The translations under genes were made by a program, and so were the position numbers. A DNA stretch of 63,767 nt, filler included, from Folioceros fuciformis (Eukaryota): assembly GCA_049999805.1 (NCBI GenBank). It is 6 parts of 6 records of this genome, joined end to end, with 100 filler letters (N's around TTAATTAATTAA, not from the genome) between each part and the next. Parts side by side here need not be neighbours in the genome. Positions count along the whole stretch, not along the records: positions 53,293 to 61,100 come from JBNGIO010001634.1; 5 more parts are not named here. The stretch is one strand, 5' to 3'. Positions 45,089 through 63,767 of the stretch are shown one piece after another. The notes under the pieces were generated by a model. That model saw only the letters and a program-made list of their open reading frames with translations. It did not search any database and was not told the origin of the DNA. Every line of letters starts with the position of its first letter. Within the stretch, counting starts at the first letter, position 1.

Positions 45089-47557
45089 GAATGGAGGACA
45101 CACGAAAAGGTGAGAGGTCCGTGCAGTGACAAGCCACATGGAGTAGCAACTCCCGTCTGAACTGCCAAAATCCGAAAGGCTATTAAACATCGGGGAAGGA
45201 GCCGTTCGCACATGGACACCCAGTCGCCAATCCCGGGTCTCCGAGTCTGGATCCCCTTGCCCTCCTCCCTTGCCTTACTTACCTCCCCCGTTTGTCCAGT
45301 ACTGCTCCAGGGCGTCAAATTCCGGAAAAGACACAAAACAGCAGCAGACACGCTTCCTCTCCCTTCCCCATGTTTGCCAAAGCCAGTGCGCAGGCTCCAC
45401 GTCCCGAGCACAGCCTGAGAATAGGCCCACAGCCAACGCCACCTACCTGTCTAGTGTTCACCATTTGGCTGGCCCTCGTCCCCATCCCTCTGGCCCCATC
45501 CCCCCGGCCCCCCGGGCCACCAACACCCATGAACCAAACGCGGCCATGAGCATACGCTGTCCATCCCGGAGTCAAGTGACTACGGTTCCCGCTCCCGCAA
45601 TCAGACTCCGTCATTCCAGCAACGACAGGCATGCAATTTCGCGAATTTCGCAGGTAGGTTTGTGCCTTTCCACTGTAGGTCTGCAGATGAAGGACACGCC
45701 TTACCAACATCAATGTTAGGATCGTCGGACGGCCAGTTACAGTACACGGAGCGCCGGCTGCTTGAGAGCAAGGGATCCTCAGCCGGTGAAACACACTTCA
45801 CATCCCATGACCCAAGATGTAGAGATGTGTCTGGTTAGGTGTGACGGTAGAGGACGGCACGTCACGGCCCGTGTCTTGCGAGGCTGGGACTCCTCCACCT
45901 CCCTCGCCCGGCTCTGTGTGTATGCGTCGAGTGCTACCTGGAGACCGATGGGAGCCGGTCGCCATAAAGCGACGGAGTGGGTAGCCGCGTTCACACAGTC
46001 GCCAGCCCTAGCCATGCCTTTCCTTGCTCGTGGACTGGAGGAGATGGCGGCCGCGAAAGGTGGCGTGACATGCTCTGACTCGACAAAGCCTGCCTGGCGG
46101 GAGTGGGAGCTGGAGGCGGGGCCTAGACGCGTCTCCTCCTTGTGTCTCCTGGTTGGAAGCAGCGGCTGCCTGTTTTTACTCATCGTAAACGTATCATGAA
46201 AAGTTAACATCCTTTGTTAGAGCTAGTAAAAGATGGGGCGTCGTCAGCAGGCGTCAGCAGTAGCCAACAGCCCGATTCGCCCAAACCCCTTGACATACAT
46301 GGCCTTCACACCACTGGCACGTGACTACCAGCTGCTGCCACTTACGTGCAAAGCCCCCTCATCATCTCTCAGCTCAGGCGCGGCTGGGAGCTGGATATGC
46401 CTTATTTTACACTATCCCAGGCTGGGGTTCCTCACAGCGTCGCGGCTAATGGCCGCAGCTAATGCTAAGGCTAATGCTAATGCGAAACCGAGTGCCAGGT
46501 TGCGCCGCGGCTGCTTTCGCCACCGATCGCTGCTCCCCTCAGCCAGGGAGGCTCCATCTCGACAGAAGAGCTCGCAGCTTTTTCCCATCTCAGCAGCTCC
46601 ACAACCCTGTGCATGGCTTCCGCTATTCTTCGTCTTCCCCTTCCCCGGCTCAGGGAGCTTCTTCTGCCGCTCCGCGCTGCGTAGCCCTCGCGCACTCCGG
46701 CACAGCGTATTCTCTTCTGTGTCGGCTGCCCTGCCTTGTCTGTTGCCCATCGCCGCACCTTGCACAGCGGATTCCCTTCTGTGACAGCGTGCCTCGTCTT
46801 TCTCCCATCTTCCCGTCTTCTGCCAGCTGCGGGGCTCGCTTGCTGCAGCCGCCTCGCTCGCCCATGTTTTGGTCCGGCTTCCTCTTCCTCTTGGCCCTGT
46901 TTCTGCTCCTCTTCTCTGTCGCTGTCGAGTCGTGCCGTGTAGCGGCTTGCGGCCCCGCGGTGTGCTCTGTTTCCGGGTCCCGGATCCTTGGCATTCGGAG
47001 GAGGGTGGTCGTGCTGGGAGGGAGGAACCTGCGGACCAGACTGAGACTGCGTGGCGGGAGGAGGAAGGCTTGGGGGGCTAGCTCTGCGGTCTGGGATTGG
47101 CACGGCCTTGGGCTGTGGGGTGTAGTTGGTTCCTCCCTCTGCCCTTCTTCGCTGTTCTTGTGCTGCTACGTGTAGCGGGCGATTGCATCTGCGGAGGTAG
47201 CGGGCACCGGGTGGTGAGGATGGTCGGCTGCTGCTGACGAGCTTCTGGGCTGGCCAATCTGTTTCTTGCCGTCCATCAGGTGAGGGGGTGATGAAAAGAG
47301 AAGCACGCTTCTTTTTTCCTTAGCTACGGCTGGAGCTAACTTGTGGGCTTCCGCTTTCGCGCAGCCTGCATTGCGCGCCGTCGTCGAAGAATGGAAGTGG
47401 CTCCCTCTTCCAATGCAGCGATGCAATGGCTCTCAGAACTTGTGGGTGTTGATCTGGGAGAGTGATGGCGCCGTGGGATGAACGCACTCTTGTCTTGTCG
47501 TGTCTTGTCCTGCTCTGTCCTGTCTTATGTTGACCACTCGGTGTTTGCTGGCAGGGT

Positions 47558-47649
47558 ATGGACGACCCGGCACTCGTCCGCCATTTGGACAGCCTCTACA
47601 AGCCGGTGGACCAGGTTGCGCCCATGGCCAGCGCCTGCAACAGCTTCGA
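47558..47649 (+). CDS. Possible first coding exon of an unknown gene truncated by the contig end
   Basis: Pyrimidine-rich acceptor (..gctggcag|ggt) then ATG GAC GAC CCG.. MDDPALVRHLDSLYKPVDQVAPMASACNSF, open to the contig edge. Upstream sequence resembles a 5'UTR/intron. Confidence 0.3.
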
Positions 47650-47749
47650 NNNNNNNNNNNNNNNNNNNNNNNNNNNNNNNNNNNNNNNNNNNNTTAATTA
47701 ATTAANNNNNNNNNNNNNNNNNNNNNNNNNNNNNNNNNNNNNNNNNNNN
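47650..47749. other. Artificial contig spacer
   Basis: N/TTAATTAATTAA/N linker. Confidence 0.98.
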
Positions 47750-48028
47750 TGAGTCGTGTGAGAGTACTTGGAGCCTAGTGTTGAGTCGTGTGAGAGCGAG
47801 TGGTTTGTAAGTGGTGCGCTGCGGAGAGAACAGACGAGATTCGAAGCCATTGCTTCCTTTTACCCTGCGTAAGGAAGGGGGCGTTACTTCTAATATGGTA
47901 CTCTAAGTGTTGAATATCTTAATTTACAATAGATTTGTAGAAAGAAAGAGGAAAATCCATCTACCCCAAACGGAAAGTGAACAATAGGACCATGAACTAA
48001 GGCAGCTAGCTAGTCCATGAGCCGACTT

Positions 48029-51013
48029 TCAAACTTGTACACATTCCTCCACCATCTCGAAACGGTTATTATCGCCGACCACAAAACTTATGACCCGTCC
48101 TTCCATGTCTGTCCACCAACTCTGGCCTGGTTGCTTCCGTGCCCGAACTCTTGCTCTCCGCGCCTGCATCCCCTGCGCCTGCTCCCACATTTTCGCACCA
48201 GTGTATATGTTCGACATCAACACATAGGCGGCCGCATCGTTCTCGTTCAGTTGTACTGCTTTGTCGAAAGCATGCCGTCCCACAGCCACATTGCTCCACT
48301 TTTGACACGCACATAAGAGAGTGTGCCAGACTGAAGCACTAGGCAGTATTGGCATTGTTGCTATCAGAGCGAGAGCCTCGTCCAGATGATTTGCACGAGC
48401 CAGGAGATCCACCATGCATGTGTAGTGCTCCACCGCGGGAGTGAGGCAATAATGTTTGATCATACTCTCAAAGTACTCTCGACCCTTTTGCACTATACCA
48501 CAGTGACTGCATACCTGGAGTACACTAAGGAATGTGATGCCATCTGGTTGTATGCCATCCTCTTGCATTCTCTGAACCAATTCAAAGACCTCCTGGCTGT
48601 CCCCTTGACTGGTGTAGCCTGCGATCAGTGCATTCCAGGTGACAGCATTTCTTGTCGGTAGTGCATCAAACAGCTGCTGGGCATCCACCATGCTGCCTGA
48701 CTTTGCATACATGATGATCAAACTGTTGGCTAAGGTCAAGTCTGCTTGTCGCCCTTCTTGTTCAACATCTGCATGCAGTTTCCTTCCAACATGTACAGCT
48801 GCAACACTTGCACATGCCTGGAGGAGGCAAACGTATGTCACGGAGTCGGGTGCAGCCATGCCTTCTTCTTGCATAGCCTTATAGACACAAAGGGCTTCTT
48901 GACCCATGTCCTCCTGCACATATCCTGCTATTAGAGCAGTCCATGTTACCACATCCTTCCAGGGAAGCCTATCAAACACTCGTTGGGCATCTTCCAAGCT
49001 GCCACACTTTGCATACATGTTCACCAAGCTATTGGCTACAACCACGTCGGCTTGCAGCCCTGCATCTTCTATCTCTGCATGAAGCTCCTTCCCCATCTCC
49101 AAAGCTAGGGTGCCTACATTTGCACATGCCTGCAGGAGGGACACAAATGTAACAGAACCTGGTGCCACAATGCCCTCATTTCGCATGGTGCTGTAAAGCT
49201 GAATAGCTTCTTGGCCCATGCCCATCTGGGAATATCCTGCAATCATGGAATTCCACATCACCAAATCTTTCTGAGGAAGCCCGTTGAACACACTCTGAGC
49301 AACTTCCAGGCTACCACACTTTGCGTACATGTTTACCAGGCTGCAGCCTAAAACACTATCAATCGTAAGGTTTTGCTGCTGTATCTGTGCATGAATCTCT
49401 CTTCCCTTCTTCAAAGCCGAGGAGCCCACACTGGCACATGCCTGGAGGAGAGACACAAATGTCACAGAATCAGGTGCAGCAGTGCAGCCTTCTTGCAGGG
49501 CACTGTAGAGATGAAGAGCTCGCTCACCCATGCCATGCTGAGAATATCCACATATCATAGCATTCCATGTCACCAAAGTTTTCTGGACAAGTGCGTTGAA
49601 GACGTCCTCAGCATCGTCTAGCCTACCACACTTGGCATACATGTTAACCAGGCTGCTGGCTACAAACTCGTCATCTTGAAGCCGTCGTTCTCTGATTTGT
49701 GCATGAAGCTGCTTTCCCCTCTCTAAAGCGGGGGCGCCAACACCTGCACATGCCTGCAAGACACACACAAATGTTACAGAATCGGGTGCCACGATGCCTT
49801 CTTCTTGCATGGCCCAGTACAGACCAAAGGCGTTCTCAACCATCCCCTTCTGGGAATATCCTGCAATCAAGGCATTCCATGTCACCAGATCTTTGTGACG
49901 AATTCTGTCAAACAATCCGTGCGCGTCTTCCAAGCTGCCACACTTTGCGTACATGCTTACCAAACTGTTGGCTACGGGCAAATCAGCTTCAAGCCCTTGT
50001 TCTCTGATTTGTGCATGAAGATGCTTGCCCTGCTCCAAACTCGTAGTGCCCACATTTGCACATGCCTGTAGGAGGCATACAAATGTCACAGAAGTAGGTC
50101 TAGCAATGCCTTCTCCTTGCATAGCACTGTAAAGACGAAGCGCTTCGTGCCGCATGCCCTGCTGGGCATAGCCCGCTATCATGGCGTTCCACAACACCGC
50201 ATCTTTCTCCCCAAGCCCATCAAACACTCTCTGAGCATCTTCCAAGTTGCTGCATTTTGCGTACATGTCCACCAAACAACTAAAAACAAACAAATCAGGC
50301 TCAACCCCACTGGCCAACAAATCAGCATGCACCTGCTGTCCATTTTTTAAGTCCGCTCCCCTCGCACACGCCTGCAGTGCTGCTACAAACACATGGCCAT
50401 CCGGCTTCACATTTGACCTGCACATCTGATGGTAAAGTTGTATAGCCTCCTTATCTAGCCCGTGCTTAACATGTGCAGAGATGATGGAAGACCAGATGAA
50501 GGCATCTGGCATGGCAACATGTGTAAACACATCTATGGCTTCTTGCAACCTGGCATGAGAAACGTACATTCGCAGGATGTGGTTACACAAGAACGTGTCC
50601 GAAGCATAACCTCCTTTCACTATGAGAGCATGTACACGACGACCCAGGATGACATTCTTCTGGACCACACATTCTTTTAAGATAGCATAAAGAAGAGACT
50701 GAGAAAGACGACGGTTCGCCTGCACCAGAGCCCCAAGAGTCTCGACAGCCTCAGTGAGCAGTCCTCGATCACATAGCTGGCTCACATTTTCAGTGGTCAA
50801 CCACCTTCCGTATCCCGCAGACCTGTGAAGGCCACTATCAGCTGGTGCACGACCCACGTGCAAATTGAGAGCAGCCAAATGCCCATCCGCGGAAGCTGGC
50901 TTGTGGACGTTATCTGGCCAGACGAGCTCCTGGCGCCCACCTTTCCCAGCCAGACCCTCCCTTGAACGGGCTGAGTCGATTGCCACGCTGCTACCTCTTG
51001 ACGCTTCCAGCAT
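48029..51013 (-). CDS. PLS-class PPR protein, E+ type with WW-type PG box and truncated DYW (no deaminase motif)
   Basis: 994-aa ORF with ~23 L/S/P repeats and E1/E2, then KQPGQSWWTDMEGRVISFVVGD and a stop ~12 aa later; no HxE/CxxC. Confidence 0.92.
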   Translation of the reverse strand: MLEASRGSSVAIDSARSREGLAGKGGRQELVWPDNVHKPASADGHLAALNLHVGRAPADSGLHRSAGYGRWLTTENVSQLCDRGLLTEAVETLGALVQANRRLSQSLLYAILKECVVQKNVILGRRVHALIVKGGYASDTFLCNHILRMYVSHARLQEAIDVFTHVAMPDAFIWSSIISAHVKHGLDKEAIQLYHQMCRSNVKPDGHVFVAALQACARGADLKNGQQVHADLLASGVEPDLFVFSCLVDMYAKCSNLEDAQRVFDGLGEKDAVLWNAMIAGYAQQGMRHEALRLYSAMQGEGIARPTSVTFVCLLQACANVGTTSLEQGKHLHAQIREQGLEADLPVANSLVSMYAKCGSLEDAHGLFDRIRHKDLVTWNALIAGYSQKGMVENAFGLYWAMQEEGIVAPDSVTFVCVLQACAGVGAPALERGKQLHAQIRERRLQDDEFVASSLVNMYAKCGRLDDAEDVFNALVQKTLVTWNAMICGYSQHGMGERALHLYSALQEGCTAAPDSVTFVSLLQACASVGSSALKKGREIHAQIQQQNLTIDSVLGCSLVNMYAKCGSLEVAQSVFNGLPQKDLVMWNSMIAGYSQMGMGQEAIQLYSTMRNEGIVAPGSVTFVSLLQACANVGTLALEMGKELHAEIEDAGLQADVVVANSLVNMYAKCGSLEDAQRVFDRLPWKDVVTWTALIAGYVQEDMGQEALCVYKAMQEEGMAAPDSVTYVCLLQACASVAAVHVGRKLHADVEQEGRQADLTLANSLIIMYAKSGSMVDAQQLFDALPTRNAVTWNALIAGYTSQGDSQEVFELVQRMQEDGIQPDGITFLSVLQVCSHCGIVQKGREYFESMIKHYCLTPAVEHYTCMVDLLARANHLDEALALIATMPILPSASVWHTLLCACQKWSNVAVGRHAFDKAVQLNENDAAAYVLMSNIYTGAKMWEQAQGMQARRARVRARKQPGQSWWTDMEGRVISFVVGDNNRFEMVEECVQV

Positions 51014-51906
51014 CTCACACCTTCAGGTCAGACCAGTGGAGTTCTTTCAAAAGCCCTGTTTGTCCCAAGACCTTTCCCCTGTCGGGCCCTGAAAGCTTGT
51101 TGCATTGGGAAAGTGTCACCCTGTGTGATTGAAGGAAAAAGGGCCACGCAAACCATTACCTGCTGAATCGAAGGACTCACGGCTTGATCCCCAAACCTGG
51201 CTCCAGTGGGCCAGGTGGAAGATGGCAGCCTCCGTATCCATTGGATGTAGCAAGGCCAGCTGCTTCCGCAATCTCAGCACCAAGGCAGACAAAGCTCCTC
51301 CTGCACGGCTGAGTGGTTGAACTGTTCACTGCTACTGGAGCGATTGTACACACTGTTGGAAACATGGTGAGTAATGAGTGTCACAAGGTGACCACTTGAT
51401 AATATGGCATCCCTGACCAGTGGCAGGATGCTTCATTTTCCAATACAAAGCACATGGACATGTAGAAACTTGCTCACATGTAGGAGCCGGGTCGCCACAT
51501 CCCTGGCTGTGGATGGACGACTTCGGTCAGATTGGTTATCAGTCGTTGCTTTTGAGAGCCAAGTAACAAACCTGCAAGCAAGCAAGCAAGGGCGTTGGTT
51601 GCATTACACTCCCAAGGGAAGATGCCGTCGGGTTCCACATCACAAGAGAGGAGCTCATTACCCAAACGACGAAGCACAGGATGACAGTTGCTATGCAGTA
51701 CTGCTGCAGTTTGCACCAGTCCCACTGCCGCTTCCGGCTCCGTCCTGAATTCAGGCAACTGCAATCAGTGGGAGTGCAACCATGCCGTCCCCCGAGGCCG
51801 CCTCCTTCTGTCTCCTCGTCAAGGACCATCCTGTCCAAGGTCCCTCAAATGTGAGAGGTTTCTGATATCAATAAAGACACTTATGCGGGGCAGCTCTCAG
51901 ACTGTC

Positions 51907-52834
51907 ATGGCGACTGTGGGAGCCGTCACCCTTCCCGGTTCTGGAGCAAGCTGTCTGGGGAGAAGAGCTGCAGTCCACAATGTGCGAGCTGAACGTGCCT
52001 ACTCGGCCTCTCGCAGTGGTCATGGCTGCGTCCAGAGCGGGTCTGTTCAGGCCAGCCTTGGTGAAGGGAGCAATTCAACCAGGAAAGGTGGAATATATTG
52101 TGAGTATGGCGAGCAGCGTTGCTCTACACGCACTTCAGCCTCGTCGAGTATGCAAGTTCTGCTGGCCATTGGAGCTTCAGCCTTCGTCTCTGCTGCCAGT
52201 CTGAGTGGTGGGTTCATGCTGGCCTCCCATCACGTCCTCCTCGGTGTGCTTGCTGACTTCACATCTTTTCTCTTCAACAGGAGTGGAAGCGGCTCTTGCT
52301 CAGGAAGGAGGGGCTCTGTTCAACAGAAGCTGTGCTGGCTGTCATTCCGGAGGTGGAAATGTCATCCAACCTGTAAGTCATCCGTGACAGTGCTGTTGCC
52401 ACTGACTGCTTTGTAGCTTGCAACCATCTCATGGTCGACATTTTCCTATTCAGGGAGCAACCTTGCTGGCTAAAGATCTACAAAGGTCAGTGGATCAATC
52501 CGGAATGTGACATCCCCGATTTTTCTGACAGATGGTTCTAAATACGTGGCGTCTGTGGATTACAGGAATGGAATAGAAACTGTAGAGGATATCTACAGCA
52601 TCACTTACTCTGGGAAAGGAAGAATGCCGGTAAGATGGCTCTGAAGAATCCTTGCTGTTACGGTACGTTGGGTATTTACTTCCAGTCGATCGTATTGGCT
52701 CATTCCAGGGCTTTGGCGAACTGTGCACACCACGGGGCCAATGCACTTTCGGACCACGGTTGAGCGAAGTTGATATAAGAACAATCGCAGAATACGTGAA
52801 GTCGCAGGCTGAACAAGGATGGTCTCGAAGGTGA
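51907..52834 (+). CDS. petJ: Chloroplast cytochrome c6A, 5 exons
   Basis: Transit/lumen-type N-terminus, heme motif CAGCH, GKGRMP axial Met, and the c6A-specific loop insertion with two Cys (CTPRGQC); ends EQGWSRR*. Confidence 0.93.
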
Positions 52835-53192
52835 ATGAAAGAAGCGAACCTGAAAATTAAAATTATCACTGTTCTCAACTCTTCCACCATGGTACAAAGG
52901 CCGCAATGGCAAATATCAAACTCCTGCCAGATAAAGGGGTTCGATCCCCTTTGAGGTTGCGCACGACTACACAAACAGCTCTCATCATGTGCAGATTCTT
53001 TAGGAAAACACCATCTGTGTTCTATTACTCCTCTTGCCTGCGAGGAGGCCTGTTTCCCCATTGCTTTCCCTTCTCCTTTTCTTCTTCGCTTTCTTCAGCA
53101 GATCTGGAAAAGCATCACCTGCCTGGTTATCCTTAACGACACTTGCCAGCAGATTCGCTGATTCCCTTTTCTTGAGGCCTTTCAGTTTTCTT

Positions 53193-53292
53193 NNNNNNNN
53201 NNNNNNNNNNNNNNNNNNNNNNNNNNNNNNNNNNNNTTAATTAATTAANNNNNNNNNNNNNNNNNNNNNNNNNNNNNNNNNNNNNNNNNNNN
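53193..53292. other. Artificial contig spacer
   Basis: N/TTAATTAATTAA/N linker. Confidence 0.98.
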
Positions 53293-53934
53293 TATGACGA
53301 GCCATCTGTCACACTTTCAACTAAGTGGCCCGACTGTACAAGACGTTCGACAACTGTACACTGCTGAGTGGGTCGGCCTCTCGCCTTTGTACCACCCACA
53401 AATCCCATCTCCTCGATTTCAATCCCGATCATCATACACAAACTGCGGCATCTGGTGGAGGAAGTTCGAACTGCAGTGCATGCCCACTTGAACGGCGGTG
53501 CATCATCAGTATCGCTAGATTCAGCACGGGACAAGGGATCTCGGCCAAGCTAAACCACTTTCACTAACATACATCTCATTTTCAATCTACAACTACTATG
53601 GGGGGGTTACCTAGCCAAGACATGACAAGAGTCACAAACATCTCCGCCCTGGGGTACATGAGAATAGCATCAGGGGGCTTACTTTTTGTGAAACACAGTC
53701 CAGTAAACGAAAGAAACGACTACTCCAAAATGTCCCTACCTGGAATCTTCTCCAGCTTTCACAGCAATGCGGAACTCCCATCCCCAATCCTGGTGTCAGC
53801 AGAGCACAAATATGGAGCTTAGTCGACACCAGTTACCATGTTCCAATGGACCCCTTCGGCACAGTGATCACAAGACATCGATGGGAGGAAGTGGCAGGAC
53901 TGACTCGCCATTCCTCCTGTCACCTCTCCTCTCC

Positions 53935-54265
53935 TTTGGTATGTTGTATGTGGACTAAAAGCAGCATATAATCCACACTGGACCTGGACTCTGTCCTCTC
54001 CAAACTTCTCAACAGCAACTTTTTGCGTTCGCTCAATATACAATTGCATGGCTTGTGGGAGCATCCAGCGTTCATAGTCAATGCTGATAGATATCATGTT
54101 TCGGCGTATGTAACAAATGTCGTTGGAATGTTTTGCGAGAAAAGCAGCAGTATCATCTACTCTAGACTCTCTGTCGTCTCCGAAGTTGTCACAGCAACTA
54201 ATCATCTTCCGCTCTCTAAACACCTGCATGGCTTGCAGGAGGATCCAGCCTTCATCTTCAATGAA
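53935..54265. repeat. Diverged 180-bp direct duplication
   Basis: 54001-54083 aligns to 54181-54263 (tgcatggcttg..gga.g.atccagc.ttcat..tcaatg). Confidence 0.75.
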
Positions 54266-54594
54266 TTATGATGTGCAACTGATGTGCCTGCTCTCCCAGC
54301 GCGCACCTGACCACCATGGAGGTTCTTCTCACCTCCCTTCCCTGCACCCTGGGACGCCCTTTCCATCAGCCTGTCTCCCTTCCACAGGCTGTCCCTTGAC
54401 ATGATGTACCACTCGTTCCCAGCCCCATAACAAACCCTGCCCTTGCTACTGACGGCTCGTGATCTCCGAGAGCTCCTCCCTTGACGACTTGCCAAAAAAT
54501 GATTGATCACCAGGAATGGGGAACCAATGCTTCATCACATGACTCACAGGAGTTTCAGAGTGGTTTGAATGCCAGCCCAGTCCCCGTTACCTCC

Positions 54595-56536
54595 TCAGCT
54601 TGTAAAGAGCTCGGGCTTCACAGCCAGGGAGTTGGGTTGAGGAGCACGCCCTACTTTGTTGTTGGCGACATCTGCCATAGCAGCATCCCTCAAGAGAGCG
54701 ATGTCCGAGGCCCCTGACACCATGTGATAGTTTAAGTTCAGCAGAGCGGCGGGTGGCAACTCGGCATTCGCTAACCCTGCCAAATAAACCGGCGTCCTCC
54801 GATGAGCATTGCAGTTGATGACGGCTTCCTCTGCTTTCCTCATGAACTCATGAGGCTGGTTCACGTCTGCCGAAGGAGGCAACCCATGTGAGTAAAGTGC
54901 AAGGTCAGCACGCAGCAACTTAGCAAGCATAGGTGCACCCAAGGATGCAGGTTGTAGAGATTACCATGGAAAATACCCATGCTCGCGCGCAACGCCAAGG
55001 GTACAATTTGGATGCAATCCACGCCTTCGATGGAGGCAATTTCGGCCACATTGCTCAAAGCCGTGACGGAACTGACCTCGCAAATGATAAATAGCTCGTT
55101 GGCGTCCATGCGAGCCGCAGTGCCGTACAAGGAGGACCGCACCAGGGGACGGCCAGCGTTAGTCCTGCACTCCTGCACCAGTTTCCTAGCACCCTCGGCC
55201 GTGTCGATGTCCGCAAACATGATACCAGAAGGCCCCAAGTCCAGCGCCCGGCGAACGACCTGCCCAGAAGGCCTAGCGGGCAGCCTGAGGATGGACGGGC
55301 ACCCTGCCGAGGCCAGCGCGTGGAGGACAGGCAGAGTGTGCGCATGGTCGCAGGGGCCGTATTCCAGATCCACAACCACGAAATCAAACTTGGCCAGCCC
55401 CAAAATCTCAGCAATCATTGGAGAGAAGCTTGCACAATACGCTCCATACACCGGCGCTCTAGATATCCTGCTTCTGATGGACAGACAAGCTTCCCTGAAC
55501 ATCCTGTTGTCAGCCGGGTGAAAGGAGATTCCGCTGGCGCCGAGAGGAGGATGAGAAGCGCCCCTGGAGGAGACCGAGGTGACCGCGGCTTCCGTACCGG
55601 CCCCGCTAGGGGCGCCTTGAGCTGAAGCCGCCACAGTGACGGGAGGTGGAGGGGGACCAGCAACCGGAGGAAGAAGCAGAGCATGCGCAGGAGGAGAAGG
55701 TGGAGAAACAGCAACAGGAGTGAGAGGAGCCGGACGAGGCAGCGGGCTCGGCCTGTCTCCTGGACCGGCGGCACCTGGTTCCAAGCTCAAGAGCATCCGA
55801 GCACCTGCACAAACACAACAGACATGCATTCGGCATGGGAAACTGAATCAAACCTAGCAATCCAAGAGAACCGAAAAGGTTTATAAAAGACACGCTGCCT
55901 TCGACCTTGGACGGGCGAATCCGCGCTCTCCACCACCCGGTCGATTGCGTTTTGCAAACTAAGCATGTCGGCGAAGTAAGGCCATCGGGAGTTGGCCTCC
56001 GTCTTCTCCGACAGAAACCGCTTCCTCAGCTTCTCGAATTTGGAGCGCACATCCCTCCAAGTCTTTGGGGGGCTGCAATCCGGATGCGTAGCGAGCATGA
56101 CAGCCAGCTCCTGCCAGTCCCCCTTGGTGTGGCATTCCGCGCGCCGAGAAACTTGCAGAGATTCATAGCAGTGCAGAAGATGGTGCACCAGGGGCGGAGT
56201 CCACTGGTCCCTGTAACACCCGTCCTTCCGCAAGTCCAGCTCCCCATTAAGAACCTTGGTGAATTCCGGGTCCCGGGCATAAGTCCAGTCGGGGTAGGGG
56301 GACGCCACCTTCGCGTTGTTAGCCAGGGCCAGCACGGCTACCGCTGAGCCGTCGAGCCTGCCCTTCTTCCGGTCCGGCTCCATGCTGATGAAGGCGGGGA
56401 TGGGGTAGGGACAGAAGGGCTCTTGTGGCACTTCTGCCTCGTAGCCGGGCTCCGGCTTCACGTCCGCTGCTCCCGCGTTGCGTCCTACGTCGGAACCCGC
56501 GCCCGGTGCCGCTCCAGGAGCCATGGCCATTTCCAC
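54595..56536 (-). CDS. Trihelix (Myb/SANT-like) DNA-binding domain fused to a degenerate HpcH/HpaI aldolase domain, 3 exons
   Basis: Exon 1 (~56536-55906) has WTPPLVHHLL..WQELA..KTWRDVRSKFEKLRKRFLSEK..WPYFADM. Phase-1 GT-AG introns at 55905-55805 and 54964-54867 join it in frame to a Pro-rich linker and the aldolase fold (AEILGLAKFDFVVVDLEYGP, RALDLGPSGIMF, IASIEGVDCIQ, YHMVSGASD). Exact start codon uncertain. Confidence 0.75.
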
Positions 56537-57241
56537 TTCCAGCAGTTGTGAACCAGCAGCAGCGTGGATCTTCGGCGGAAGGCCTTCTTCTTTCTCTTGC
56601 CCGCCATGATTAACCCGTGGGGCTGTCTGAACCTAAAATTCGAACCCCAATTTGCGAAATCCCACATGTGTTTTCCGAAACCCCACATTTTGAGGAACCG
56701 CATACGTATGAATCTTGTTTACGGAAGAACAAATTTCGGAAACCCCAGCTGGATCTGCGAAATCCAAGTAGCCCATCAGGGTGCCGGATGTCATGGCGAT
56801 CACTGGACGACAGTAAGGACAGACTCACTCGCGACACAAGCCAAATGAGCACCACAGTGCGTGCTCGGAACACCACATTGTGCAACAAAACAACTCACAA
56901 ACTTAGCTTAGTCGTAACATTTCTCATTACACCACACCACACCACATCATCAACAAAAGATACAGGTGTGTTACAATTTTAGTTAGCGTAACATGAGCAT
57001 GAGCTGCCAAGCAATGATACAAATGCTGGGTTATATGGAGACAACCTCGTAATAACACATCATATAGCGTAGCTGTTTACAAACAAGATCAAGAACAAAG
57101 AGATTAGTGTGGATGTCCGACAAAAGACTACTATCAAAGGGACTTCATGGACCAAATGCAACCATTAGACGCACGGTTTAATAATGTTATTCAAAAATAT
57201 TAATAAACTGACCCCCCCCACCGGTTTATCTATTTACTATT

Positions 57242-57258
57242 TTTAGGGTTTAGGGTTA
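57242..57258 (+). repeat. Short interstitial telomere-like (TTTAGGG)2
   Basis: tttagggtttagggtt within an AT-rich intergenic stretch. Confidence 0.5.
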
Positions 57259-58157
57259 CTTGAAAACAATTTAGCGTAAATAACGCAGCATTAAAGCAGT
57301 TTAAAGTAAGGCCAACAATTCATGTTCCGCAGCGAGACTCAGGCAGGAAAAAACCTGCAACTCCTGGCGCTGAACTGCCTTCCAAGCCCGACTCTCCTGC
57401 TCCTTGCTTCAGAGTCCAGTTTTGCGGATTCCCGCACCTCACTTCGTCAGAATCTGAACAGGCGTACGGTAGTTGATGAGAACGAAGATCGTACACAACT
57501 AACACTTCATCTTGAGAATAGGAGGAAGATACTCTAGATTCAATCAGGAAATAGGGCACCGCTTTTACTGCATATGGATGTTCCTGTACAACAGATGAGA
57601 GGATGAACGGCTGATTTAAGTCGTCTACGGCTACTATCTGTCACCACCACATAGCTGGAGTGATAATGAAGGACAGAACTGAGTGTATAGGCTCTCAATG
57701 CCTATCCTTTCCCACTGGACCACACTTGTCCTCCTCATAATCCAAGCGCAGATTGAAGAACTAAATAACAATACCTGTTAGGTCCCTGTCAAACAGCTCT
57801 AGTCGAGAGCACTGCAAAACGCAGTTCCTGAATATTGTCAGGACAGGTGCCTAACTTACAGTTGATTTAGACGCCCGCAAGTGCATAAGAAACCTGCAGT
57901 TGTATTCCGTGCTTGGGCTACAAGAAGAAGAGTAATCCAGGCTGGCTTCAGCATCCTACATGCATTTAGCCACACAAAGGTTAGGCTAGGAATCGACTTT
58001 TCCCATTGTACGATTTCTGTGTCATTCCTTTACTACCCCAGGAGGTTAACTCTTATTCAAGAATGAACCACTCCAACCTTTGTGCAATGCCTGGTAAAAT
58101 CATATCATGACCGATTTCCTTCTGCCTCCACCTGCTGCGCAACCAACCACCCATTAC

Positions 58158-59396
58158 TCAGAATCTGATGCCTTCCTCCAGTTCTCCTGTGTCCCTCCTT
58201 TGCAACCCTCCTCTCGGCATGTCTCTTTCTGTCCGTCTCTTGAGACTCCTTCCTGTTCCTGCTCGTTCCCCAGTTTGATCGGATTCAAAATCAGAATCAG
58301 ACATTCGGCTGTATGATCTCTTCGACCCTCTCCGCTCACTTCTTTCCCTCGTCTCTGAATCGGCCCCTTTCTTGCGGTCTCTTTCACTAGTTCCAACCTT
58401 CCCATGCTTTTTGGTAGGGTGGACATCCGCGTCCCGCTCTGTCTCAGCATTGGAGGACGTTGAGCGACTACCCTGTTCATCCTTCCCATTCCTAAGGTTT
58501 CTGCTCTTCCTCGAGTCTTCCGCTTCAATTCTTACGGCCTGCACCTGACTAGGACCAGCCTGCTCATCCTCCCTCCCAACAGTTTGAAGACGGCTTGGTG
58601 CAGAAACCTCCCTACCCCGTCCTTGAGGTTGTCTGGCCGTCTCAGATTTCACTCTGTCACTATTCCTCCTCCTTGCAGAATCTTCACCTGCATCCTGCTG
58701 AACAACAGTAGGCTTGGGCGCACTGCACAACAACCCATATCTTAACACGCTGAGGTCGAAACCTAGAAAAGCTAACAAAACGTGACAAGACATGGGCCTC
58801 CCAAGGTGACTTACGGTGCAAATCCAAGACCTTCTACACGCTGTCCAGGTGAATAATCAGGAGCCGAGTCGTCTTTCACTCCCCTTTTAAAAAGCTCTGC
58901 GGCCTCGTGCTTGTCAATATTGCTACCGCGTGGCTTAGTATCCCGCTTGGGAGCCAGACCTAAAGCTTCTCGCATCAACTGCTCCTCCTCCTCTTTCACC
59001 CTTGCAATCTCCGCCCTCGCAGCATCCGCATCCTTCTGCGAACCGCCCTTGGCATACCAATGCAAATCCTTTCCTGCAAATCACACGTCCAACGCTCACT
59101 ATCCTGTCCACTCGGCATCAAACACTGACACACACAAACATTTACGCACCTTTCTGCCATCTGCCAACCGGAGCCTTGATGCTGTGGCCAAGATAATTCT
59201 CCCGATGCTTGTCATTTTTCACATCGTCCCAATTAAATTCTGCGAACCCAGTGAATCATAAGTAAGCATCGCCAACACCCACACGGTCAAGCAGAGCCCA
59301 AGAACCAGATACACCGCATTCTGCGCATTCTGGATAAAGTGAGAAATCCTTACGATCCCGTCCGCCTCTGACGCCACCGCGAGATGGGTGATACAT
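58158..59396 (-). CDS. MMTAG2: Multiple myeloma tumor-associated protein 2 (C1orf35) homolog, 4 exons
   Basis: [72 protein letters not shown], followed by a charged Arg/Ser/Asp-rich tail. Confidence 0.9.
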
Positions 59397-59951
59397 GATT
59401 CCAACCGGCTACAAAGGCCAGCCAGCTCGATGCCCACCTGCGAAGACGATGCCTTCAATGTCGTGCCGAAAATTGCCGGTCCGCTACAGAACCCTAATAA
59501 CCATGGCCGAGAGTCAATGCCTCCGGCAGGCATACATGTACTGTACATATATAGAGATGCATGCATGTAGAAGTATGTACATCTATGCACGCATCTGTCT
59601 CGGGGAAACGAACCTGGTGCCCTAAACGACCAAAAGCTCGTAGAAAAAGCAACCAGTTAGCGTCCATCGAGGTGGCCAACGTGAATGCAGGAAGAAGCGA
59701 GAGGACGCGCTCGGCGTGCCAGGCCGCGCCTCCCCATTGGCGCAAGCTTCCTGACTCTTTGGTGCCGATGTATCAGCAGGCCGATGTGCGCTTTCCAAGT
59801 GTAGCTTCCAGGAAGTCCCAGCTCAGCCCGTCGGGGGCAGTACGTATATCCAGTTTGTGCAGTTGGTGTTGCTGTTTCGCCCGTCATTGAAGTTGCCGTT
59901 CCGAGGGTTCACTGATACCCTTCCTGATTTGCTCTCCACCTTCCCTTCGCG

Positions 59952-61100
59952 ATGGCTTCCCTGCCCTGCCTCGTGGCCATCTCCGCCCTGGCCTTGGCCC
60001 TGGCCCTGGTCTTAACAGCCTCAAAGGCTCTGGCCGCAGTTGCAGAAGCTCACACAGCAGGCAGCGTCCGCGGCCAGGAAGGCAGCGATCTTGTTTCTGC
60101 TCTTCTTGGGGCAGTGCAGATGCCGGGGGTTTGGGTGGGAATTGCGGCCGTAGCGGCCGTGATGGCGATCACGGCGCGGGGCAAGAAGCCGAAGCAGCGT
60201 GGGGTTCGGGTGGAGCTGGCCCCTGCGTCCGAGACGGAGCCCGCGGAGGAGGGTGTGGTGTACCGCAACCACAGATTCCTGAGCTTGGTGGAGGATCTGG
60301 ACGGGGCGGCCACCTTACCCGCGCTCTTCGAGCAAGCTTGCAAGGAGAAATTCCCGCACAACCGGCTCCTTGGTACCAGAACCCTGGTGAAGCGAGAGGT
60401 GCAGAAGACCGCGGAAGGGAAATCCTTTGAGAAGCTGGTGCTGGGAGGGTACGTGTGGCTCACGTACGCGCAGACATTTAACCGAGTGTGCGATTTCTCG
60501 TCGGGCCTGGCGAGCTTGGGCCATAGGAAGGGAGAGCGGGTGGCCCTGTTCGCAGAGACGCGCGCGGAGTGGCTCATCGCGGCGCAGGCCTGCTTCAGGA
60601 GGAATGCGCCCGTAGTGACCATCTACGCCTCGCTGGGGGAGGAGGCGCTGGCCTTCTCGCTCACGGAGACGGAGGTGACGACGGTGGTTTGCGACGTGAA
60701 GCAGCTGCAGAAGCTGGCCGGGCTGCGGGAGCGGCTCGGGGCGGTCCTCCGGGTGGTGTACATGGAGGACTGGGAGGAGGAGGCGGCGCTGAAGGAGGTG
60801 GTGGAGTCGACTCGGGGGACCGGGTGGACGGTGCTGGCTTTCTCCCAAGTGGAGGCCCGGGGGCAGCAGAGTCCGGTTCCGGCCGACCTGCCAGCGCACT
60901 CGGACACGGCCGTGATCATGTACACCAGCGGGAGCACCGGAATGCCCAAGGGCGTGATGATGTCGCACCGGAACCTGGCGGCCACTGTGGGCGGGATTAC
61001 ACAGCTGTTGCCGGGGCTGGGGCCGGACGACACCTACATCGCTTACCTTCCGCTGGCGCACGTCCTGGAGCTAGCTGCGGAGGTGGTGATGGTGGGGAGC
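59952..61100 (+). CDS. LACS: Long-chain acyl-CoA synthetase, LACS8/9-like, 5' partial (truncated by contig end)
   Basis: YRNHRF..LFEQAC..LLGTR..FEKLVLGGYVW, TIYASLGEEAL, AMP-binding IMYTSGSTGMPKGVMMSH, AYLPLAHVLELAAE. Confidence 0.92.
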
Positions 61101-61200
61101 NNNNNNNNNNNNNNNNNNNNNNNNNNNNNNNNNNNNNNNNNNNNTTAATTAATTAANNNNNNNNNNNNNNNNNNNNNNNNNNNNNNNNNNNNNNNNNNNN
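61101..61200. other. Artificial contig spacer
   Basis: N/TTAATTAATTAA/N linker. Confidence 0.98.
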
Positions 61201-63767
61201 ATTGGCCGTGGTGTTCCTGATTCGGAGCTATATCGTTTGGATGCGATTTGTGAGTCTTCCTCTGCAGCACCAATCATCACTTCTACTACTCCAGCGGATC
61301 TACCTGCCAGTGAACAGGCCAAGTTATGGCATGCCCGCCTCGGACATGTAAATAAAAACTCTCTCATCAAGATGTCTACACAAGATTGTTATGTGGAACC
61401 TCTACCTTCTTGCTTCAAACATTTACCTATCTGTGAAGCTTGTCTGTTGGCTAAACAAAAGGAGAAGCCTTTTCCAAAACATGCTTACAGAACTTCAGGG
61501 CTGTTAGATCTTGTGCATGCCGACATCTCTGGTAAACTGCAAGTACAATCTTTAGGAGGAGCCCTATATTATCTTACAATAACAGATGATTATAGCAGGC
61601 TTACCTGGACGTATACCATGTCTCGAAAGAATGAGACTTTTCACTTCTTTAAGGAGTGGTTTTTCATGGCTCAAAGACAGTCTGGCTGCTTACTCAAATG
61701 TTTACGTTCAGATAATGGAACTGAATTTTGTAACAATACTTTTGATGCCTTTCTTAAGGATCATGGTGTGCTACGCCAACTTACCGTTTCTTATACTCTA
61801 GAGCAGAATGGGGTTGCCGAGAGAAAGAATCAAACCCTCATGGGGATGACCCGCAGTATGCTTAGCCGGGCATCCCTCCCTGCAGAGTATTGGGCAGAGG
61901 CTCTCACCACAGCTACTTACATTCTTAACCGCCTCATTACGACTTCACTTCAAGATAAGACACCTTTTGAGATGTTTCTGGGGTCGCAAGCCAAGCATCT
62001 TACACCTTCGAGTGTTTGGTTCACCTGCATACGCTTACATTCCACCTGAGAAGCGTCAGAAACTTGACAATAGATCACGAGCTTTGATCTTTGTAGGCTA
62101 TGGGGATGAAGCTAAGGCTTATAAGTTAATTGACCCCTCTGATCTTACCCCTGTCCTTGCACGAAGTGTTGTTTTTAAAGAGCTGTTGCATTCTGCTTCT
62201 CCAGATGTTGGTGTTCATCCTTCCTCCGATTCTGATTCTTCTGATGATGACTCTTCAGTTACGGATGTCTTCGCCACACCTCCTACTACCTTCCCTGGAG
62301 CAACTGATGTGGTCGAGCCACCTCCTGTAGAGCCTCCAGATCCTCCAAACCCTGTTGATTTCCCTGACCCCATTAATGATCATGCATCAGCTGAGGGTAC
62401 TTCAATTCCAGATCAGAATCCTGTTCCCTTGGAGCTTTCCACACATCATGCTGATTCAGAGGAGGACTTACCACCTGTCGAGGCAGTACCCCCTTCCCGT
62501 TACAATTTGAGAGCACGAATTCCTCAGGCATAGTGGAAGGAACCCCCTTATAAATCTATCGATTTTCGCAACAGTTCTGCTCATACAGCAATTCCAGGCA
62601 ATGTTCCTATACATCTAGACCCTACCTCTATGGATGAAGCTTACTCTGGACCCGATGCCCATCACTGGCAAGCTGCAGTAGAGGAGGAATATCAATCTAT
62701 TATTAAGAACAATACTTGGATACTTACAGACTTGCCCGGAGGGCGTAAACCAGTAAGCTGCAAATGGGTGTTTGAAACCAAGCTAAATGCCGATGGTGAA
62801 ATTGCTCGCTACAAGGCTCGGCTTTGTGCACGTGGATTCAGCCAAGTTGCAGGTCTTGACTACCAAGAAACTTTCTCTCCTGTAGTCAGAGCACAAAGTA
62901 TTAGAATCCTGCTTGCTCTTACTGCTGAACTTAACCTAGAATTGCACCAAATGGATGTGTGCACGGCATTTTTACATGGTGAAATTGAAGAGGAGATATA
63001 TATGGAACAACCTGAAGGATATGTTAACAAACAATGGCCTAACAAGGTCATGAAACTTCTCAAGGCCCTTTATGGCCTGAAGCAAAGTGCCATGCTTTGG
63101 AATAAACGGTTGGATACTCATCTTAAGAAATTAGGCTTTCTTCAAAGTGCTGCAGACTCTTCAGTGTACTATTTGGCTGATGGATCTGCATTTTGCATCC
63201 AAGCCATTTACGTAGATGACTGCATCTTTGCCTGCACAGATACATCTATATTAGAAACAGTTAAAACACTCCTTAGAAATGAATTCGAAATGAAGTATGT
63301 GGGAGAGTTAAAATTCTGCTTAGGCGGTCAGGTTTTATGTCACAGAGATGCAGGCCTAATCGTTATACATCAAAAGAAGTACCTAACTGAGATTTTGAAG
63401 CGATTTCAGCTTGACCAAGCACGTCCAGTATCCACTCCAGGCTCTGTGGGAGTGAAATTAACTTCTGACCAATGTGCCACTTCTGCTAATGAGCTTGCAG
63501 ACATGGAGAAAGTGCCTTATAGGCATGCAGTAGGCTGCCTAATTTTTATATCTAACTGGACTAGGCCTGACATAGCCTATTCTGTTAGTGCTGTCTCACA
63601 GTTCATGGAGAAACCTGGTCGAGTACATTGGGCAGCAGTGAAACGTATCTACCGTTACCTTAATTAAGGGTACCATGACCGTTGGACTCTTTTATCAATC
63701 TGGATCACCATCAAGTCTCAAATTATCTGCATATACCGATGCTGATTGGGCTACAGACTCTGAATCT
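61201..63767 (+). mobile_element. Ty1/copia LTR retrotransposon pol fragment (pre-integrase, integrase, RT, RNase H start), disrupted
   Basis: LWHARLGH..CEAC (Zn finger), HADI/RSDNGTEF/EQNGVAERKN (DDE), CKWVF, YKARLCARGFSQ, QMDV.TAFL.G, LYGLKQ, YVDD, RPDI, YTDADWA, in INT-RT order (copia). Frameshift ~61975, in-frame TAG 62531-62533, frameshift ~63662. Confidence 0.95.

What the first reader, a model, noticed from the sequence alone, without database searches (positions are those of the whole stretch)
54595..56536. Trihelix DNA-binding domain fused to a catalytically dead HpcH/HpaI aldolase: candidate metabolite-sensing transcription factor
Seen: three minus-strand reading frames join through two ~100-bp GT-AG phase-1 introns (55905-55805, 54964-54867) into one ORF. 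Its order is trihelix/Myb-SANT domain, Pro-rich linker, then a complete plant-type HpcH aldolase barrel. Established: in HpaI/HpcH class II pyruvate aldolases the DxEH His, the Arg, the QIE Glu and the GPxD Asp (the latter two being metal ligands) are catalytic. Seen: here these read DLEY (H>Y), ICEVSS (E>S) and IVPLAL (G>V, D>A), while the Arg (ILRL) and the LD.G Asp are retained. Inference: this is a pseudo-enzyme kept as a ligand-binding or oligomerisation module on a transcription factor. It would be analogous to known trihelix/amino-acid-kinase fusions, but I do not recognise this partner from described proteins.
Basis: partly seen in the sequence, partly recalled or inferred. Interest (0 to 1): 0.8.

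Follow-up and report, generated by a model that had tools for sequence, protein, structure and literature searches.

The report
Plant DNA-binding protein with dead aldolase
A moss-like plant has a spliced gene that joins a DNA-binding domain to a sugar-acid enzyme barrel that has lost its catalytic residues; a second organism keeps the same fusion, and the dead enzyme most likely bundles several DNA-binding heads together.

Summary
Three minus-strand exons give a 578-aa protein: a trihelix (Myb/SANT) domain, a Pro-rich linker and an HpcH/HpaI barrel. Contigs of one public run skip both predicted introns. A 597-aa single-frame protein from elsewhere, P0001, has the same architecture and is the only close relative found. 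Both copies lack His45 and both metal ligands, carry Gly172Val and Gln147Glu, and have lost the YPPxG loop; 105 of 105 plant HpcH rows keep His, Gln, Glu, Gly and Asp. An intact paralog remains in the genome. The barrel changed fast once and was then constrained again. The nearest trihelix proteins end in a helical block, probably a dimerising coiled coil; here the barrel stands in its place. Best reading: a transcription factor whose dead barrel is an oligomerisation scaffold (0.5). Metabolite sensing is possible but unsupported (0.22), since the pyruvate/metal site is destroyed. It is a new variant of a known kind (BZR1-BAM, trihelix/amino-acid kinase); my searches found this pairing in no paper.

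The parts
55906..56530 (-). Coding exon 1 (residues 1-208 plus one base): N-terminal region, conserved segment, trihelix domain
   Evidence: covered without differences by a run-X1 contig 55904-56614
56207..56386 (-). Residues 49-108: conserved segment of no known family, with a basic cluster (residues 54-58) that looks like a nuclear localisation signal
   Evidence: 46 of 60 identical to P0001, more than the trihelix itself at 40 of 86; no Pfam hit at E<=10 for residues 50-108; low model confidence; the NLS consensus is recalled, not from a call
55961..56212 (-). Trihelix (Myb_DNA-bind_4) domain, residues 107-190
   Evidence: Pfam E 4.6e-9; confident helical model; VIA-align to Arabidopsis GT-1 2jmw Z 7.4, rmsd 3.3, 71 aligned
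55805..55905 (-). Intron 1, 101 nt, GT..AG, phase 1; both spliced and retained forms seen. Retention gives a 247-aa trihelix-only frame ending at 55787
54965..55804 (-). Coding exon 2: Pro-rich linker and strands 1-6 of the aldolase barrel
55485..55948 (-). Linker, residues 195-315 (spans intron 1), 20% Pro, poorly conserved
   Evidence: 35 of 107 aligned residues identical to P0001; Pro content; pLDDT under 50 in the P0001 model
54652..55484 (-). HpcH/HpaI pseudo-aldolase barrel, residues 316-560 (spans intron 2). Y357 = H45, R382 = R70, E451 = Q147, S453 = E149, V476 = G172, A479 = D175
   Evidence: 161 of 239 aligned residues identical to P0001; P0001 model matches HpcH/HpaI structures, best E 3.2e-15
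54867..54964 (-). Intron 2, 98 nt, GT..AG, phase 1; absent from the intact paralog
   Evidence: paralog barrel lies in one 332-aa open frame
54595..54866 (-). Coding exon 3: strands 7-8, helix 8 and stop codon
56485..56607 (-). Out-of-frame upstream ORF of 40 codons overlapping the first two in-frame ATGs; possible translational control
   Evidence: its ATG lies within the run-X1 contig that reaches 56614; function not tested

Best explanation
A lineage-restricted, expressed trihelix transcription factor in which a duplicated plant HpcH aldolase replaced the C-terminal helical (coiled-coil) block of a SIP1-type trihelix protein. Shown: one spliced frame, both domains, loss of catalytic and metal-binding residues, an intact parent enzyme elsewhere in the genome, the same state in a second organism. 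Inferred: the protein is nuclear; the barrel still assembles as a trimer or hexamer like HpaI; three to six trihelix heads on roughly 120-residue flexible tethers then bind clustered or distant DNA sites with avidity. Intron-1 retention would give a barrel-less form or a degraded message.
For: Architecture. Dead site: H45Y, Q147E, E149S, G172V, D175A/S in both copies against 105 of 105 intact plant rows; Glu and Asp are the metal ligands and His and Arg are catalytic in AbHpaI (PMC8560999). Constraint: barrel 161 of 239 identical against linker 35 of 107; 80 of 100 plant-invariant columns identical between the copies against 82 of 140 variable ones, p 0.0003; stem 0.74 with tips 0.29 and 0.28, next to tips 0.23 and 0.18 for the intact paralog and its nearest relative. 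Replacement: a profile of the C-terminal block of 7 of the 15 nearest trihelix proteins hits genomic SIP1-type proteins (L013 E 7.7e-5) but neither fusion protein at E<=10; in another trihelix, ASR3, such a region is needed for homodimerisation (PMC7794824). HpaI hexamers rest on helices 1, 2 and 8 (PMC8560999); these are 32 of 39 identical between the copies against 30 of 52 for other helices, p 0.012.
Against: Oligomerisation was not shown. The helix test is post hoc and weak: 1 of 5 active-enzyme control pairs shows the same enrichment (p 0.005), the other four p 0.07-0.97. The inter-subunit loop is shortened and poorly modelled (pLDDT under 50 at P0001 447-462), which could weaken the trimer. 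The trihelix is divergent: 40 of 86 identical between copies, and P0001 scores 24.8 bits, under Pfam's cut-off of 27, so DNA binding is not certain. Only two sequences are known; no dN/dS could be computed. The intron-1 junction contig is short and from one run.
Confidence: 0.5

Rival explanations
1. Metabolite-sensing transcription factor: the pocket was rebuilt as a metal-free binding site for a small acid or other ligand, and binding tunes oligomer state or DNA binding.
For: R70, D42, E44 and D84 are kept and both copies share the same new pocket residues Y19, Y45, E147, S149, V172; 23 of 43 departures from plant-invariant columns are the same new residue in both copies. BZR1-BAMs are proposed to integrate metabolic signals (PMC6394054).
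Against: Both metal ligands are gone, so the metal-bridged pyruvate site cannot form; G172V probably fills the carboxylate site (role of that loop recalled); the loop lent by the neighbouring subunit is shortened; pocket identity of 11 of 12 is not above the 80 of 100 background.
Confidence: 0.22
2. Protein-interaction adaptor: the barrel and the conserved residues 49-108 are docking surfaces for chromatin or other partners, and the Myb domain may come from a Harbinger element, as in domesticated Harbinger Myb proteins (that class is recalled).
For: Residues 49-108 are the best-conserved part, 46 of 60, and have no family. The genome has 112 Myb_DNA-bind_4 matches, many with stops, and at least one (L022) lies beside a DDE_Tnp_4 transposase.
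Against: 15 of the 17 hits of exon 1 among 1.84 billion representatives are near-identical RDEW-type trihelix domains; 14 were read and all 15 aligned. The tree joins the fusion with them at 93/84, not starred and on a long branch. No transposase-like frame of 110 aa or more was seen at 45100-63767 apart from a Copia-type element, and no terminal inverted repeats flank the gene.
Confidence: 0.13
3. Residual or new catalysis: E147 replaces a lost ligand and the barrel does a different reaction near chromatin.
For: Q147E places an acid two residues from the lost E149 in both copies, and R70 and E44 are kept.
Against: D175 and H45 are also lost and D175 differs between the copies (A, S); the intact paralog supplies the normal activity.
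Confidence: 0.07
4. Non-functional or incidental chimera: two genes or a decaying fusion read through by chance.
For: Intron 1 is retained in a contig at depth 21.7 against 55.8 for the spliced one; a truncated, diverged copy of exon 1 exists elsewhere (L004).
Against: P0001 keeps the same two domains in one frame with domain-selective conservation and the same derived residues.
Confidence: 0.05

Closest known systems
BZR1-BAM transcription factors (Arabidopsis BAM7, BAM8)
   Same: Plant DNA-binding domain fused N-terminally to a catalytically inactive metabolic enzyme domain; DNA-binding domain and NLS in exon 1; parent enzyme oligomeric (BAM2 tetramer) (PMC6394054 and PMC10400034, passages).
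   Different: Other DNA-binding domain (trihelix, not BZR1) and other enzyme (HpcH aldolase, not beta-amylase); separate origin; found here in two sequences only, whereas BZR1-BAMs span ferns to angiosperms.
Trihelix/amino-acid-kinase chimera At3g10030 (rice Os04g33300)
   Same: SIP1-clade trihelix fused to an enzyme domain with the parent enzyme gene kept separately (PMC5526864, PMC12569286, passages).
   Different: Kinase fold rather than aldolase barrel; whether that kinase domain is inactive was not stated in the passages read.
SIP1-clade trihelix factors of the RDEW type (P0109-P0123; likeness to At3g54390 is recalled)
   Same: Closest trihelix sequences (E 1.1e-5 to 7.4e-4, 30-36% identity); trihelix followed by a Pro-rich linker.
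   Different: They end in a conserved helical block that the fusion lacks; the fusion's trihelix is much diverged and preceded by its own conserved segment.
Plant HpcH/HpaI class II pyruvate aldolase-like proteins and bacterial HpaI
   Same: Same barrel; the pseudo-domain lies inside the plant clade, 100/99; 40-47% identity to plant rows.
   Different: Catalytic His, both metal ligands, GPxD Gly and the YPPxG loop are lost; an intron is present; the N-terminal extension is replaced by a trihelix exon.

Membership tests
Active HpcH/HpaI class II pyruvate aldolase | HpcH_HpaI barrel fold | tested here: met
   Pfam E 6.8e-19; P0001 model with eight strands matches 4mf4, 1dxe, 7et8, TM by target 0.75-0.79
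Active HpcH/HpaI class II pyruvate aldolase | Metal ligands Glu149 and Asp175 | tested here: not met
   Ser and Ala (Ser, Ser in P0001) against 105 of 105 plant rows; role from PMC8560999
Active HpcH/HpaI class II pyruvate aldolase | Catalytic His45 | tested here: not met
   Tyr in both copies
Active HpcH/HpaI class II pyruvate aldolase | Catalytic Arg70, with Glu44, Asp42, Asp84 | tested here: met
   All kept in both copies
Active HpcH/HpaI class II pyruvate aldolase | Trimer/hexamer assembly | tested here: inconclusive
   Only conservation of helices 1, 2, 8 could be tested (32 of 39 against 30 of 52; 1 of 5 controls alike)
Active HpcH/HpaI class II pyruvate aldolase | Aldolase activity | not testable with these tools
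   Needs an assay
SIP1-clade trihelix transcription factor | Myb_DNA-bind_4 trihelix domain | tested here: met
   37 bits over cut-off 27; P0001 24.8 bits, under it; GT-1 structure second in VIA-align, Z 7.4, a middling score by the tool's own note; Foldseek gave no match at E<=0.001
SIP1-clade trihelix transcription factor | Groups with SIP1-type domains | tested here: inconclusive
   Top hits are RDEW-type; tree support 93/84, long branch, and those rows were chosen as top hits
SIP1-clade trihelix transcription factor | C-terminal alpha-helical (coiled-coil) domain | tested here: not met
   No hit in either fusion protein at E<=10
SIP1-clade trihelix transcription factor | Nuclear location and sequence-specific DNA binding | not testable with these tools
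   Only a conserved basic cluster at residues 54-58
Transcription factor-pseudoenzyme chimera (BZR1-BAM kind) | DNA-binding domain and dead enzyme domain in one chain, intact parent kept | tested here: met
   (inactivity judged from sequence)
Transcription factor-pseudoenzyme chimera (BZR1-BAM kind) | Same partner domains as a described chimera | tested here: not met
   Trihelix plus HpcH; described pairs are BZR1 plus beta-amylase and trihelix plus amino-acid kinase
Harbinger transposon Myb protein | Neighbouring DDE_Tnp_4 transposase and terminal inverted repeats | tested here: not met
   None seen in the ORF list (four neighbours scanned) or among repeats at 53300-60000; an old domesticated origin is not excluded

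The most novel reading that the evidence does not exclude
The barrel is both scaffold and sensor: a hexamer carrying six tethered trihelix heads whose rebuilt, metal-free pocket (Y19, E44, Y45, R70, E147, S149, V172) binds a small metabolite and gates DNA looping or avidity, giving this early land-plant lineage its own metabolite-controlled transcription factor, built independently of BZR1-BAM.
Probability: 0.2. Interest if true: 0.82.

Novelty: new variant of a known kind. Interest (0 to 1): 0.58.

Why it matters
It adds an independent case of a plant transcription factor built from a dead metabolic enzyme, here with the parent enzyme and the ancestral trihelix layout both available for comparison. 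Because the barrel stands where a dimerising helix normally is, and its ligand site is largely destroyed, it offers a clean test of whether such enzyme domains are kept as sensors or as oligomerisers, a question that also applies to BZR1-BAMs and the trihelix/kinase chimera.

Tried and rejected
Complex prediction of three barrel copies was not available, so oligomer state is open. Cluster look-up for P0001-P0004 could not be made, so P0001's organism is unknown and no DNA for dN/dS was obtained. No RNA holder on record was listed; the one holder is a guessed RNA run; runs X2 and X3 laid nothing. Metagenome scans: 0 of 286 pattern matches confirmed for the barrel; 1 of 34 for the trihelix, L034, a 33% match resting on one shared 8-residue word, rejected. 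Shorter-length search: 19 hits among 8000 scored candidates, best P0124 is an intact aldolase, no further pseudo-copies. ESM Atlas: no usable hit for P0001; only generic Myb/SANT clusters under 0.9 for the N-terminal part. Foldseek on the exon-1 model: no match at E<=0.001. P0108 (match to residues 41-74, 7 stretches in a 936-aa protein) set aside as repetitive, not read. blastn found no hit between the gene and L004; a gapped local alignment did, score 129 against at most 35 in 30 shuffles. A bacterial donor for the barrel was rejected. Earlier scan notes: three look-ups, nothing. Papers: 'trihelix' + 'HpcH' 0; 'HpcH HpaI' + aldolase + Arabidopsis + plant 0; At4g10750 + aldolase 0; some searches listed papers, none describing the fusion by title or abstract start.

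Full report
Gene model. Splicing at 55905-55805 and 54964-54867 gives one open frame of 578 codons from ATG 56530 to TGA 54595; both introns are GT..AG and phase 1. Exon 1 carries Myb_DNA-bind_4 (E 4.6e-9) and exon 2 HpcH_HpaI (E 6.8e-19). One public run holds 0.87 of the stretch's sampled words; its RNA status is a guess. Its contigs match without differences from 53600 to 56614 and skip exactly both introns. The intron-2 joint is well bridged; the intron-1 joint rests on a 56-nt contig with 26 and 30 letters a side, below the tool's 31-letter standard. A second contig keeps intron 1 (depth 21.7 against 55.8). This is one run of one study and may come from the same material as the genome.

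A second copy. A search with the barrel part for longer proteins gave 107 hits among 1938 candidates. The best, P0001 (597 aa, unnamed 2307-nt contig), is 66% identical; the rest are 39-51% and 306-409 aa long. P0001 has both domains in one frame, though its Myb score is under the Pfam cut-off. It is not among the own-genome matches, so it most likely comes from another organism; G000 may be incomplete. It was the only hit for the N-terminal part among 2866 candidates and the only one at E<=1e-10 among 1.84 billion representatives. Identity by region: residues 49-108, 46 of 60; trihelix, 40 of 86; linker, 35 of 107; barrel, 161 of 239.

The barrel is a pseudo-enzyme. Numbering was carried over from E. 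coli HpaI through P0003. In the Acinetobacter enzyme (numbers two higher) Glu151 and Asp177 bind the metal and Glu46, His47 and Arg72 do the chemistry (PMC8560999, passages and section 10). Among 105 intact plant rows (104 of 106 fetched proteins, two dropped for lacking the anchor motif, plus the genome's paralog) H45, Q147, E149, G172 and D175 are invariant. The window has Y, E, S, V, A and P0001 Y, E, S, V, S; both keep D42, E44, R70, D84, both have Y at position 19, and both lack the YPPxG stretch. The genome has 2 PF03328 matches among 2 candidates: this one and an intact paralog, L002. A model of P0001 has eight strands in a confident barrel and matches HpcH/HpaI structures first.

History. 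With bacterial-type rows included (37 rows, LG+G4), the two pseudo-domains form a clade (100/100) inside the plant clade (100/99), position unresolved, on a stem of 0.74 with tips of 0.29 and 0.28; the intact paralog and its nearest relative P0003 have tips of 0.23 and 0.18. A plant-only tree (35 rows, mixture model) shows the same long stem. Whether P0003 and P0001 share a host is unknown, so the rate comparison is indicative. Plant-invariant columns remain more conserved between the copies than variable ones (80 of 100 against 82 of 140). This fits a burst of change followed by renewed constraint, not decay.

The trihelix side. Fifteen of the 17 hits of exon 1 are RDEW-type trihelix domains. 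Seven of them show a C-terminal helical block; a profile of it finds genomic SIP1-type proteins but neither fusion protein. In a tree of 34 domains (25 of 112 genomic matches fetched; duplicates, rows under 70 aa and weak rows left out) the fusion joins the RDEW group at 93/84, unstarred and on a long branch; the genome's best match to an RDEW protein is 37-40%. A Harbinger origin is not excluded: L022's Myb lies beside a DDE_Tnp_4 gene. The exon-1 model has four confident helices and aligns best to Sap1 (Z 10.7) and GT-1 (Z 7.4); Foldseek gave nothing at E<=0.001.

Mechanism. HpaI is a dimer of trimers held by helices 1, 2 and 8, with the pocket completed by a loop from the neighbour. Those helices are 32 of 39 identical between the copies against 30 of 52 for other helices (p 0.012), but one of five active pairs shows the same, so this is weak (first version 33 of 40 against 126 of 195, 0 of 3 controls alike). 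With the barrel standing where a dimerising helix normally is (ASR3 passage, PMC7794824), the scaffold reading is the most economical: several tethered heads binding DNA with avidity. Sensing cannot use the old metal-pyruvate site, but the shared new residues leave a rebuilt pocket possible.

Host. Not determined. GC is 50.2%, a PLS/E-type PPR gene lies nearby, and the intact paralog groups with liverwort sequences, away from angiosperms. This fits a bryophyte; a hornwort paper reports GC 49.6% and expanded SIP1 and PLS-PPR families (PMC7027989, passages). 'Hornwort' is an inference.

What is known. BZR1-BAMs fuse a DNA-binding domain to an inactive beta-amylase (PMC6394054, PMC10400034; passages). 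A trihelix/amino-acid-kinase chimera is listed for Arabidopsis and rice (PMC5526864, PMC12569286; passages). Reinhold 2011, Soyk 2014 and Kaplan-Levy 2012 were seen only as cited there. Ten searches found no trihelix-HpcH fusion; PMC11712027 has no 'aldolase' or 'fusion'. The hornwort paper's supplement (two files searched, one cut when stored) lists one gene annotated only as PF03328, sequence not seen. Subscription papers, bioRxiv supplements and domain-architecture databases were not searchable, so an automatic catalogue entry may exist.

Verdict. Real, spliced and conserved in at least two organisms; catalytically dead by sequence; a new domain pairing within a known kind. Scaffold 0.5, sensor 0.22, adaptor 0.13, new enzyme 0.07, non-functional 0.05. 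Interest 0.58.

Noticed in passing
L004:1488-1888 (G000:C4403): Diverged partial copy of the trihelix part of exon 1 and most of intron 1 (247 of 421 columns identical), ending in a stop after the trihelix; groups with the window's gene at 99/90.
   Followed up: partly
window 56607-56485 (-): Out-of-frame upstream ORF of 40 codons in good ATG context, overlapping the first in-frame ATGs; Met50, where strong conservation begins, lies 102 bases past its stop.
   Followed up: partly
window 53819-54265 (-): 148-aa open frame with an internal 54-nt repeat (80% alike, 180 nt apart), no Pfam hit, on the same run-X1 contig as exon 3; long 3' UTR or separate gene.
   Followed up: partly
window 48029-51022 (-): 997-aa single-frame PPR protein with an E motif, of the organellar RNA-editing type.
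   Followed up: no
window 59928-61148 (+): AMP-binding enzyme, probably a long-chain acyl-CoA synthetase, cut by an N gap.
   Followed up: no
window 61153-63667 (+): Copia-type retrotransposon frames (RVT_2 E 3.8e-75), in pieces.
   Followed up: no
G000, PF13837 matches; L022: 112 Myb_DNA-bind_4 matches, many with stops; L022's SIP1-like Myb lies beside a Harbinger-type transposase, so part of the apparent SIP1 expansion in this genome may be transposon-borne.
   Followed up: partly
L002 (G000:C6230:33991-34674): Intact HpcH aldolase with no intron in the barrel; the fusion has one, so intron 2 was probably gained after duplication.
   Followed up: partly
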